Below, in pieces: positions 21,079 to 22,469 of a stretch of 41,733 bases of DNA. The position numbers and the translations under genes are program-made. Each line of letters begins with the position of its first letter. Within the stretch, counting starts at the first letter, position 1. Under the pieces are notes generated by a model. It was not told the DNA's origin. It did no database searches and saw only the letters and a list, made by a program, of their open reading frames with translations. The DNA is from an uncultured Eubacteriales bacterium (GTDB lineage: Bacteria; Bacillota; Clostridia; Oscillospirales; CAG-272): NCBI GenBank assembly GCA_934365155.1, contig CAKRMZ010000009.1, forward strand, positions 1 through 41,733, read 5' to 3'.

Positions 21079-21843
21079 TCAATGTCTGTTTTTTCGGTTT
21101 TGCTTGTTGATTTTTGAGATGTTTTTAAACTTTTCACGCTTTGCTTCTAAATATCGGCTACTGTCTGTTGCATATTCGGTCTCGTTTTTCAGTTTCAAAT
21201 AAGAATTCCATCTGGCATCGTCCAGCGTTCCGTCCGACAAAGCTTTTTGAATGGCGCATCCCGGCTCTGAGGTATGACTGCAATTGGAAAATTTGCACAT
21301 GTGGGACAAATTTTCAATATCCCGAAATGCTATGTTGATTCCGTTATCATTGTCCCACATTCCAATTTCGCGCATGCCGGGGGTATCAATGACAAAAGCC
21401 CCGTCAATTTCGGTATCCACAATGGCAGACGTACCGATGACCATGCTGTCGGTCAAATCGTGGTTTTTACAGCTTTCCGACACCTCGTGCGTCAGGTGCA
21501 GATAGTCGGTGTTGAACCCGGCAAGACTGTCCGAGAACGGAACATCGCAGGAGCTGACCTCACCGGTCTTATTTTTCACAATGGTATTCACTGCAATGCT
21601 GTCATATTTCCAAAACTCGCGTCCCACGGGGAGAAAATAAAACTCACCCAACTCGCTCGCCGCCTTGCCGATGCACCAGCAGAGGAGCATATTGAACTTG
21701 TAACCACGCTTACGGCTCAGCTTCAGAAGCGGCGTGACATCCAGTGTTTTGAAAAAGGTCACCATGGGGTCCGGCGCGTTCATCCAAAGCGCATATGCCT
21801 CGGCACGGGCAGTCGCTTTCGGGTCGATAACAACCGGTTTCAT
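21079..21843 (-). CDS. Chimeric protein: type-A chloramphenicol-acetyltransferase-like (CAT fold) N-terminal ~155 aa that lacks the catalytic HHAVCDG His region, joined to an RsgA/YjeQ-like C-terminal zinc-finger tail
   Basis: The N-terminus ..[49 protein letters not shown].. is alignable by eye to CAT (..[46 protein letters not shown]..). The C-terminus ..[14 protein letters not shown]...[46 protein letters not shown] matches the RsgA DTPGF...CKFRGCLHLKEPKCAV...Y motif block. The ATG overlaps the stop of the upstream XAT gene (ATGA). Confidence 0.55.
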
Positions 21844-22469
21844 TCTGCACGCTCTAATGCCGCAATATCGCCGGACTGAATGGCGGGAATGCCGTGTTTG
21901 ATTTTTTCCTCGTCCCAATCCCACCAGCGCAAGGCTTGGAGTTTCTCAATCGTTGCGTCGTCAAATCGACGGCGAATGGACTTTGCGGGAACGCCGCCCA
22001 CAATGGTGTAGGGGGGAACGTCCTTTGTTACCACGGCACGTGTACCGACGATTGCACCGTCACCGATTTTTACACCCGGCATAATGACCGCCTCATAGCC
22101 GATCCAAACATCATTTCCGATCACGGTGTCGCCTTTGTTGTCCCATGCATCGCAAATGTTTTTTACATCAAGATCCCATTCATCAAAGAAAATTGGGAAG
22201 GTATAGGTCGCTAACGACTTTATCGAATGGTTTCCGCTGGTGAACAGAAATTTTGCGCCGCAGGCAATCGAACAGAATTTGCCGATTTTCAGTTTGTCGC
22301 CGTTGACGGGATAGTGATAGAGCACATTGTTCTTTTCAAAATCGCAGGGATCGTGGACGAAATCGTTATATATTGTATAATCGCCGACTTCGATATTCGG
22401 GTCTGTGATAACATCTTTTAGGTAAACCGTCTGTTTATCATGCGGACGAGGATAGATTTTATTTTTCAT
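21840..22469 (-). CDS. Xenobiotic acetyltransferase (XAT) family hexapeptide-repeat enzyme, Vat/CatB-like (candidate streptogramin A or chloramphenicol O-acetyltransferase)
   Basis: The 209-aa protein contains ..[19 protein letters not shown].. and ..[73 protein letters not shown].., which match conserved blocks of Vat(D)/SatA and CatB as recalled from memory. Confidence 0.75.

What the first reader, a model, noticed from the sequence alone, without database searches (positions are those of the whole stretch)
21079..22469. XAT-family acetyltransferase translationally coupled to a CAT-fold protein that ends in an RsgA-type zinc-finger tail
The upstream gene is a Vat/CatB-like hexapeptide acetyltransferase that retains the [16 protein letters not shown] and [23 protein letters not shown] blocks. 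Its stop overlaps (ATGA) the start of a 254-aa ORF. The first ~155 residues of that ORF read as a type-A chloramphenicol acetyltransferase fold, but the HHAVCDG catalytic-His region is replaced by a sequence matching the C-terminal part of the ribosome-biogenesis GTPase RsgA ([12 protein letters not shown] ... [20 protein letters not shown] ... RWNSYLKL; compare DTPGF ... CKFRGCLHLKEPKCAV ... Y). The RsgA-like part has no P-loop and no OB domain. This is either a novel domain fusion, for example a CAT-like trimer scaffold presenting an RsgA ribosome-binding zinc finger, which would be intriguing next to an enzyme that modifies ribosome-targeting antibiotics, or an in-frame gene-fragment fusion remnant.
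Basis: partly seen in the sequence, partly recalled or inferred. Interest (0 to 1): 0.7.

Follow-up and report, generated by a model that had tools for sequence, protein, structure and literature searches.

The report
Deletion-made cat–rsgA chimeric gene remnant
The odd "CAT fold with an RsgA zinc-finger tail" protein is real DNA, but it is the scar of a recent deletion that joined the front of an acetyltransferase gene to the back of a ribosome-GTPase gene in one gut bacterial species, so it is an ordinary gene remnant and not a new protein architecture.

Summary
On the minus strand, an intact Vat/CatB-like XAT gene (21840-22469) overlaps by ATGA a 254-aa ORF (21079-21843). Residues 1-149 of that ORF are the N-terminal 70% of a CatA-like family-2 acetyltransferase. 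Residues 147-254 are the C-terminal third of an RsgA GTPase (G3 motif DTPG plus the zinc finger).

It is not a conserved fusion. Related Oscillospiraceae carry separate, intact cat (about 210 aa) and rsgA (330 aa) genes on the same strand, 3-6 kb apart, with other genes between them. A conspecific genome (GCA_977037965.1) has the intact 330-aa rsgA in the same place. Its DNA is 99.8% identical to the window starting exactly at the junction (window 21404). The joint lies on an 8-nt stretch (ACGGGGCT) that the rsgA parent certainly carries and intact cat homologs carry at the matching site.

Both halves lack their catalytic parts: the CAT HHxxxDG motif, and the RsgA P-loop and OB domain. Neither 5.8 billion protein clusters nor 1.84 billion representatives contain another protein with this junction.

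The same gene array has produced several other deletion chimeras. The allele is genuine, found in 8 independent assemblies, and one copy is frameshifted. Verdict: a recent short-homology deletion remnant, of low interest.

The parts
21840..22469 (-). Intact Vat/CatB-like XAT hexapeptide acetyltransferase gene (209 aa). It is the functional upstream partner, and its stop overlaps the next ORF's start.
   Evidence: Pfam Hexapep E 1.5e-11. NCBIfam Vat_ABCDEFH 240 bits (cutoff 300) and CatB 198 bits (cutoff 350). PDB VatA 6x3c E 3e-52 over residues 5-207, with the NH catalytic motif aligned.
21840..21843 (-). ATGA stop/start overlap between the XAT gene and the chimeric ORF. It is inherited from the ancestral vat-cat pair.
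   Evidence: Read directly from the sequence. Intact vat-cat pairs in L006 and others show the same 4-nt overlap.
21397..21843 (-). cat-derived part of the chimeric ORF: codons 1-149 of a CatA-like family-2 O-acetyltransferase. The last ~55 profile positions, including the catalytic HHxxxDG, are deleted.
   Evidence: NF040637 positions 2-148 of 203, E 3.9e-70, 235.7 bits, below the 250 cutoff. It is colinear with L006 cat up to nt 446. Intact homologs are 206-210 aa.
21397..21404 (-). Deletion joint: the 8-nt stretch ACGGGGCT (minus strand). It is found verbatim in the conspecific rsgA parent, and as GAC GGN GCN in intact cat homologs (the window species' own intact cat was not recovered).
   Evidence: L190 rsgA reads AAAAACGGGGCTTTTGTC and the window reads ATTGACGGGGCTTTTGTC. 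The 99.8% identity to L190 starts at window 21404. Intact cat homologs read GACGGNGCNGTC here, and L038 has exactly GACGGGGCTGTC.
21079..21404 (-). rsgA-derived part: codons ~223-330 of an accessory RsgA GTPase plus the stop. It includes the last GTPase beta-strand, G3 DTPG (21376-21387), the zinc knuckle C-x4-C-x-H-x5-C (21256-21297) and a Lys-rich C-terminal helix.
   Evidence: TIGR00157 positions 170-246 of 247, E 1.1e-19, 70.9 bits, below the 100 cutoff. PDB RsgA E ~1e-11. One amino-acid difference from the C-terminal 107 residues of the intact conspecific 330-aa RsgA in L190.
20894..20930 (-). Terminator-like hairpin (12-bp stem plus T run) after the chimeric ORF. This is the original end of the array's transcription unit, downstream of rsgA.
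   Evidence: Pattern scan only. The same 195-bp spacer lies between rsgA and the DUF6198 gene in L190.

Best explanation
The 254-aa ORF is a chimeric gene remnant. The ancestor of this uncultured gut Oscillospiraceae species carried a one-strand array: TetR, DUF998, ClpP, GNAT, Vat-like XAT, CatA-like acetyltransferase, several further genes (in relatives: DUF6434, erythromycin-esterase-like, or a response regulator / ABC transporter / histidine kinase module, and a 170-aa protein), and finally an accessory RsgA GTPase followed by a terminator. A RecA-independent, short-homology (about 8 nt, ACGGGGCT) illegitimate recombination deleted everything from cat codon 150 to rsgA codon ~222, an estimated 3-6 kb. 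The joint happened to be in frame.

The chimeric ORF keeps cat's ATGA translational coupling to the intact vat-like gene, so it is probably still translated. It lacks the CAT catalytic His/Asp and the last quarter of the CAT fold. It also lacks the RsgA OB domain and the G4/G1/G2 motifs, so it can have neither parental activity. It is most likely an inert, probably unstable by-product. The functional unit left at this site is the XAT gene and the genes upstream of it.

Shown: the anatomy, separate parents in relatives, the conspecific intact rsgA, the exact junction, the absence of orthologous fusions, and the reality of the allele in 8 assemblies. Inferred: the deletion mechanism, the polarity of the event, and the lack of function.
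For: 1. Domain mapping: CatA_like_2 positions 2-148 of 203 and RsgA positions 170-246 of 247.
2. Relatives L006, L007 and L008 have Vat, Cat (210 aa), DUF6434, Ere, a 170-aa protein and RsgA (330 aa) on one strand. L020 and L032 have Vat, Cat..., RR, ABC, permease, HisKA, (p170), RsgA. All 80 GTDB species loci match the query only over its cat-derived part, and their cat genes are full length apart from two cut by contig ends and one frameshifted copy.
3. blastn shows the window colinear with L006 to cat nt 446, then jumping to rsgA nt 668, with 7 nt of overlap.
4. Conspecific L190 (identical DUF6198 protein) has an intact RsgA that passes the TIGR00157 cutoff (170.9 bits against 100). Its 99.8% DNA identity to the window begins exactly at 21404 and runs 4.7 kb.
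5. Only the query's own 90% cluster contains this cat149::rsgA junction among 5.8e9 clusters. The only other proteins hitting both halves are the P0014/P0017 chimeras, which have a different breakpoint. No protein among the 150 best of 1.84e9 representatives matches both halves.
6. Other independent deletion chimeras occur in the same array: P0014 (cat 1-76 joined to whole RsgA), the L190 282-aa ORF, P0126, P0129, P0133, and the fragments in L010-L013.
7. One conspecific contig (L187) has a 1-nt deletion at codon 65 that splits the ORF.
8. The catalytic HHxxxDG is present in intact homologs and absent here.
Against: - The fusion allele is the common one in the samples recovered: 8 assemblies carry it and 1 carries the intact-rsgA allele. 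It is in frame and keeps translational coupling, all four zinc ligands and the conserved columns of the tail. Expression and some residual 30S binding are therefore not excluded.
- The strains are 99.6-100% identical, so the population data cannot measure selection.
- No conspecific genome with an intact cat was found. The left parent is inferred from other species at about 80% DNA identity.
- L190 differs from the window by a segment swap (5.25 kb against 2.3 kb). The history needs either two independent deletions from a longer ancestor or a replacement event.
Confidence: 0.9

Rival explanations
1. Functional neo-fusion. The chimeric protein is expressed, and its RsgA zinc-finger tail docks on the 30S subunit, acting as a decoy, a dominant-negative or a tether next to the XAT enzyme. 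Selection then keeps it in the species.
For: - The ORF is in frame, is ATGA-coupled, and keeps the zinc ligands and conserved tail columns.
- It is the majority allele, found in 8 assemblies.
- The zinc-coordinating region anchors YjeQ to the 30S subunit (PMC4436671).
- Three independent chimeras keep a tail that starts at the same residue.
Against: - It is restricted to one near-clonal lineage, and a conspecific allele has the intact rsgA.
- There are no orthologous fusions in 5.8e9 clusters, 1.84e9 representatives or 185k species genomes.
- The joint cuts inside both folds, removing the last quarter of CAT and leaving an orphan GTPase beta-strand.
- One frameshifted copy exists.
- Since the ORF is followed by a terminator-like hairpin (pattern match only) and so probably ends its transcription unit, nothing beyond the 1-in-3 chance is needed to explain the frame.
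Confidence: 0.05
2. The same remnant, but made by segment replacement rather than simple deletion. A foreign or paralogous block running from TetR to the truncated cat recombined into an L190-like locus through two illegitimate joints, destroying the 5' two-thirds of rsgA.
For: The window and L190 share flanks at 99.7-99.8% identity but differ by a 5.25-kb against a 2.3-kb internal segment.
Against: - At the left border it is L190, not the window, that carries the chimeric gene. The window's 128-aa ORF is full-length homologous to the 136-aa gene of L010. L190's 282-aa ORF combines residues 1-74 of that gene with an ABC-2 permease.
- Relatives L020 and L032 hold both segments in one array. Two independent deletions from a long ancestor therefore explain both alleles.
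Confidence: 0.15
3. Assembly or binning artefact: a chimeric contig joining two loci.
For: None beyond the a priori oddity of the ORF.
Against: The exact 40-nt junction sequence occurs in contigs from 8 different samples. These contigs come from several assembly pipelines, judging by their naming styles (k141_ contigs, NODE_ contigs, METAG scaffolds, Logan contigs), and have identical flanks on both sides.
Confidence: 0.01

Closest known systems
Chimeric ORFs and pseudogene remnants made by short-homology (illegitimate, RecA-independent) deletion between neighbouring genes in bacterial accessory regions
   Same: There is a single joint on a short stretch (about 8 nt) that the rsgA parent carries and cat homologs carry. 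Both parents are separate and intact in relatives. The event is strain- or species-restricted, catalytic parts are lost, and further deletion derivatives occur in the same array.
   Different: Nothing essential differs. This case happens to be in frame, and it keeps the upstream gene's translational coupling and a complete zinc-finger module.
CatA-like O-acetyltransferase, family 2 (NCBIfam NF040637; type-A CAT fold, e.g. CAT III, PDB 3CLA)
   Same: Residues 1-149 are 75-86% identical to intact family members and match profile positions 2-148.
   Different: It lacks profile positions 149-203, including the HHxxxDG catalytic motif, and scores below the family cutoff. It is a fragment, not a member.
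RsgA/YjeQ/YloQ small-subunit biogenesis GTPase (TIGR00157; PDB 2YKR, 5NO2, 1T9H)
   Same: The C-terminal 107 residues differ by one residue from those of an intact conspecific RsgA paralog. They carry G3 DTPG, the C-x4-C-x-H-x5-C zinc knuckle and the C-terminal helix.
   Different: There is no OB domain and no G4/G1/G2 motifs, so no GTPase activity is possible. The score is below the family cutoff.
Vat/CatB xenobiotic acetyltransferases (XAT; VatA PDB 6X3C, VatD 1KHR, CatB/PaXAT 1XAT)
   Same: The upstream gene gives a full-length left-handed beta-helix match. It is about 50% identical to VatA by eye from the alignment, and the catalytic His motif aligns.
   Different: It scores below both the Vat and the CatB equivalog cutoffs, so its substrate cannot be assigned.

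Membership tests
Type-A CAT / CatA-like family 2 (N-terminal half of the 254-aa ORF) | Full-length match to the family profile above the curated cutoff | tested here: not met
   NF040637 gives 235.7 bits against a cutoff of 250 and covers only positions 2-148 of 203. The intact L006 homolog scores 347.8 bits over positions 3-202.
Type-A CAT / CatA-like family 2 (N-terminal half of the 254-aa ORF) | Catalytic HHxxxDG motif (His195 and Asp199 of CAT III) | tested here: not met
   Intact homolog P0003 aligns HHTQMDGAH to HHAVCDGFH of 3CLA. The window ORF ends its cat part at residue 149, upstream of this motif.
RsgA/YjeQ GTPase (C-terminal half of the 254-aa ORF) | N-terminal OB-fold domain and circularly permuted GTPase core with G4, G1 (P-loop) and G2 | tested here: not met
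   Only profile positions 170-246 of 247 are matched. GSSGVGKST, present in the intact L190 RsgA, is absent here.
RsgA/YjeQ GTPase (C-terminal half of the 254-aa ORF) | G3 DTPG and the C-terminal zinc-finger domain (Cys, Cys, His, Cys) | tested here: met
   DTPG at residues 153-156. C183, C188, H190 and C196 are invariant in alignments A1 and A2 and align to solved RsgA structures.
RsgA/YjeQ GTPase (C-terminal half of the 254-aa ORF) | Whole-protein score above the TIGR00157 cutoff | tested here: not met
   70.9 bits against a cutoff of 100. The conspecific intact gene scores 170.9 bits.
XAT (Vat/CatB) hexapeptide acetyltransferase (upstream gene 21840-22469) | Left-handed beta-helix hexapeptide repeats and a full-length match to Vat/CatB structures with the catalytic His | tested here: met
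   Pfam Hexapep E 1.5e-11. VatA 6x3c E 3e-52 over residues 5-207, with g-n-H aligned to a-n-H.
XAT (Vat/CatB) hexapeptide acetyltransferase (upstream gene 21840-22469) | Equivalog-level assignment to Vat (streptogramin A) or CatB (chloramphenicol) | tested here: not met
   Vat_ABCDEFH 240 bits, below the 300 cutoff. CatB 198 bits, below the 350 cutoff.
Deletion-derived chimeric ORF (gene remnant) | Both parents exist as separate intact genes, in the same order and on the same strand, in related genomes | tested here: met
   L006-L008, L016, L020, L027, L030, L032 and L038.
Deletion-derived chimeric ORF (gene remnant) | A conspecific allele retains an intact parent, with DNA identity starting at the joint | tested here: met
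   L190 has the intact 330-aa rsgA, and 99.8% identity runs from window 21404 onward. No conspecific intact cat was found, so the left side rests on other species.
Deletion-derived chimeric ORF (gene remnant) | No conserved orthologous fusion outside the lineage | tested here: met
   Only the query's own 90% cluster contains this junction.
Deletion-derived chimeric ORF (gene remnant) | The protein product is non-functional or unstable | not testable with these tools
   Inferred from the loss of catalytic motifs and the truncation of both folds. Confirming it needs expression and biochemistry.

The most novel reading that the evidence does not exclude
The chimeric protein is made, and its free RsgA zinc-finger and C-terminal-helix module binds 30S subunits. 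This would give a selectable effect, for example modulating late 30S maturation or antibiotic tolerance. It would explain why this allele predominates in the species. It would also explain why three independent chimeras (cat, MFS and ABC N-termini) all keep a tail beginning at the same Asn-Gly-Ala site.
Probability: 0.04. Interest if true: 0.5.

Novelty: new member of a known kind. Interest (0 to 1): 0.1.

Why it matters
It matters mostly as a caution. A domain combination that looks striking in a single sequence, a CAT fold plus a ribosome-binding zinc finger next to an antibiotic-modifying enzyme, dissolves once syntenic relatives and a conspecific allele are examined. Annotation pipelines should label this ORF a fusion remnant. 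It should be counted neither as a chloramphenicol acetyltransferase (it would inflate resistome counts) nor as an RsgA.

The more interesting biology is in the context: a deletion-prone, one-strand array of resistance-like genes in gut Oscillospiraceae that ends in an accessory RsgA paralog.

Tried and rejected
1. Relaxed-selection test on the tail. The window tail is only 65-69% identical to RsgA tails of related species, which are 83-94% identical to each other, whereas the cat part shows no such excess. This looked like decay. It was invalidated when the conspecific intact RsgA (L190) proved to have a tail differing by one residue. The divergence is lineage-specific, and the fusion is recent.

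2. Apparent decay variants of the fusion ORF in conspecific contigs: 278 aa in L181 and 198 aa in L185. The alignment showed both are runs of N from scaffolding, so they are artefacts. Only the 1-nt deletion in L187 is real sequence.

3. Tail-only protein search. It returned only proteins of 188 aa or less, so it is enriched for fragments and cannot give the frequency of intact against truncated genes. The best identity was 73%.

4. Metagenome-contig scan with a tail alignment.

5. GTDB species scan. The window's own species was not recovered with the fusion, and all hits cover only the cat part.

6. Recombination hotspot at the rsgA N-G-A site. Three of the chimeras share it. However, the sample is biased by query design and by the length limit, and the site is a GC-rich Gly-Ala motif identical to Walker-A coding sequence. 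This is left unresolved.

7. Structure prediction was not run. The only permissible alignment (A2) misaligns the cat middle with the RsgA GTPase core, and a model would not discriminate function from remnant.

Full report
**Observation**

Both genes lie on the minus strand. ORF listing and direct reading give a 209-aa gene at 21840-22469 and a 254-aa ORF at 21079-21843. Plus-strand bases 21840-21843 read tcat, which is ATGA on the coding strand, so the stop of the first gene overlaps the start of the second.

The first gene is a full-length XAT-class hexapeptide acetyltransferase:
- Pfam Hexapep gives E 1.5e-11.
- The match to the VatA structure 6x3c gives E 3e-52 over residues 5-207.
- It scores below both the Vat cutoff (240 against 300 bits) and the CatB cutoff (198 against 350 bits), so its substrate cannot be assigned.

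- Residues 5-151 match CatA-like O-acetyltransferase family 2 positions 2-148 of 203 (E 3.9e-70).
- Residues 144-219 match RsgA TIGR00157 positions 170-246 of 247 (E 1.1e-19).
- The tail aligns to solved E. coli RsgA residues 259-333.
- An intact homolog aligns to CAT III through the catalytic HHxxxDG motif, which the window ORF no longer has.

**Is it a conserved fusion?**

No. A search of 5.8 billion protein clusters found full-length matches only in the query's own 90% cluster. All other strong hits are ordinary 206-212-aa CatA-like proteins covering about 59% of the query. The exception is a 417-aa class (P0014/P0017).

That class is a different chimera of the same two genes. It joins cat residues 1-76 to a complete RsgA, and it also sits directly after a Vat-like gene.

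A scan of one genome per 185,579 species returned 80 loci. Every one matches only the cat-derived part of the query, mostly residues 1-149. An exhaustive HMMER pass over 1.84 billion representatives found proteins matching either query residues ~1-156 or ~147-253. It found none matching both halves.

**The parents**

In related gut Oscillospiraceae/Eubacteriales the two genes are separate, intact and on one strand. L006, L007 and L008 carry ClpP, GNAT, (DUF3795, TfoX), Vat, Cat (210 aa), DUF6434, erythromycin-esterase-like, a 170-aa protein, RsgA (330 aa) and ICMT. L020 and L032 carry Vat and Cat, then further genes (DUF6434 in L020) followed by a response regulator or similar gene, an ABC ATPase, an ABC-2 permease, HisKA, (p170) and RsgA.

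At the DNA level the window is colinear with L006 through vat and cat up to cat nt 446. It then jumps to rsgA nt 668, and the two alignments overlap by 7 nt.

**The decisive comparison**

Looking up the exact DUF6198 protein encoded just downstream recovered a conspecific genome (GCA_977037965.1, locus L190). It has an intact 330-aa RsgA in the same position, with the same 195-bp spacer before DUF6198. That RsgA passes the TIGR00157 cutoff (170.9 against 100 bits). Its last 107 residues differ from the window's tail by one residue.

DNA identity between L190 and the window is 99.8% over 4.7 kb and begins exactly at window 21404, which is the joint. The two sequences read:
- L190 rsgA: AAAAACGGGGCTTTTGTC
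- Window: ATTGACGGGGCTTTTGTC

Intact cat homologs read GAC GGN GCN GTC at the corresponding site, and one of them has exactly GACGGGGCTGTC. The joint therefore sits on up to 8 nt of shared sequence (window 21397-21404). This is the signature of short-homology illegitimate recombination.

**History of the locus**

The window and L190 also share their left flank (window 30820-26656, 99.7% identity). Between the two flanks they differ by 5.25 kb against 2.3 kb.

At the left border the chimera is in L190, not in the window. L190's 282-aa ORF combines residues 1-74 of a small membrane protein with an ABC-2 permease. The small membrane protein is full length in the window and in L010, and the permease lies downstream of cat in L020 and L032.

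The simplest history is one long ancestral array and two independent deletions:
- The window type removed cat codon 150 to rsgA codon ~222.
- The L190 type removed everything from the small membrane protein to the permease.

A single segment replacement is a less likely alternative. Either way, the cat::rsgA joint is an illegitimate recombination scar.

**Is the allele real, and is it maintained?**

The exact 40-nt junction occurs in contigs from 8 different samples. The contig names show several assembly pipelines (k141_, NODE_, METAG scaffolds, Logan), so it is not an assembly artefact. These contigs are 99.6-100% identical to the window, so they carry no information on selection.

Two apparent length variants of the ORF were scaffolding N-runs. 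One Logan contig (L187) has a genuine 1-nt deletion at codon 65 that splits the ORF. An initial impression that the tail had diverged abnormally was overturned by L190: the tail is simply that of this species' own RsgA paralog.

**Mechanism and function**

The chimera inherits cat's ATGA coupling to the intact vat-like gene. It is followed by a strong terminator-like hairpin at 20930-20904, so it is probably transcribed and translated.

It lacks the last quarter of the CAT fold, including the catalytic His and Asp. On the RsgA side it retains only the final GTPase beta-strand, G3, the zinc finger and the C-terminal helix. Neither parental activity is possible, so I infer an inert and probably unstable product.

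The zinc-coordinating region is what anchors YjeQ to the 30S subunit (PMC4436671). Residual ribosome binding therefore cannot be excluded, but nothing here supports it.

**Context**

The array is conspicuously deletion-prone. Besides the cases above:
- P0126 joins 38 residues of an MFS transporter to RsgA from residue 224 (6 contigs).
- P0129 joins an ABC ATPase N-terminus to RsgA at residue 223, where the Walker-A coding sequence AACGGCGCT equals the rsgA site.
- P0133 joins the same ABC N-terminus at the RsgA P-loop.
- L010-L013 carry fragments of ere, rsgA and clpP.
- Aberrant cat derivatives with internal deletions between DGA-coding repeats also exist.

Three chimeras share the rsgA-side breakpoint. 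This may reflect a GC-rich microhomology hotspot or ascertainment bias.

**Verdict**

This is a correctly observed but ordinary feature: a recent, lineage-restricted, in-frame deletion remnant. It is not a new domain architecture. Interest is low. The only novel reading left is a fortuitously active zinc-finger tail, to which I give about 4%.

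Noticed in passing
L190:5813-6805; L006:9136-10128; also L016, L020, L027, L030, L032, L038 (window remnant 21079-21404): An accessory 330-aa RsgA paralog with a Lys-rich C-terminal extension is typically the last or near-last gene of a variable one-strand array of resistance- or detox-like genes. 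The array includes TetR, a ClpP paralog, GNAT, a Vat-like XAT, CatA-like_2, an Ere-like esterase and an RR/ABC/HisKA module, and occurs in many gut Oscillospiraceae. Streptomyces coelicolor also has an antibiotic-induced RsgA paralog in the WblC regulon (PMC7157823). A possible antibiotic-responsive ribosome-assembly factor.
   Followed up: partly
L190:3948-4796 (conspecific genome GCA_977037965.1); window counterpart 26485-26871 (-): The alternative allele of the same species carries its own in-frame deletion chimera. This 282-aa ORF combines residues 1-74 of a small membrane protein (intact in the window) with residues ~64-282 of an ABC-2 permease.
   Followed up: yes
L005:1115-2368; L094:7001-7432; L098:221-661; L099:2809-3333: Four further independent in-frame chimeras involve the same RsgA paralog: cat(1-76)::whole RsgA, MFS(1-38)::RsgA(224-), ABC(1-39)::RsgA(223-) and ABC(1-19)::RsgA(172-). 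With the window, three share the rsgA-side breakpoint at AAC GGN GCN, just before FVIDTPG. This could be a hotspot or a sampling bias.
   Followed up: partly
window 21840-22469 with 21397-21843; L006:5375-6633 and about 16 of the 80 GTDB loci: A Vat-like XAT gene lies immediately upstream of a CatA-like family-2 gene, mostly with a 4-nt ATGA overlap. This recurrent pairing of two unrelated acetyltransferase folds is seen across many uncultured Clostridia, and its substrate is unknown.
   Followed up: partly
window 23124-23714 (-): A full-length ClpP gene (NF001368, 311 bits) lies inside the array between a DUF998 gene and a GNAT gene. In relatives L010-L012 it is reduced to a 43-aa fragment. 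It is presumably an accessory copy, but no other clpP gene was looked for.
   Followed up: no
window 25264-25291 (-): A perfect sigma-70 consensus (TTGACA, 16 nt, TATAAT) lies just upstream of the TetR-family gene at 24571-25230. It is the likely promoter of the remaining TetR-to-Vat part of the array.
   Followed up: no
window 19237-19312 (+); 14961-17844 (+): A tRNA-Trp(CCA) gene and the S13, S11, S4, RpoA, L17 ribosomal operon flank the array. The array is therefore chromosomal and adjacent to core genes, not on a plasmid or phage.
   Followed up: no
L187:733-1496 (window 21651): One conspecific contig has a 1-nt deletion (TT to T) at codon 65 of the chimeric ORF, plus a nearby C-to-T change. 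This splits the ORF into 84-aa and 170-aa pieces (the latter is P0122).
   Followed up: yes
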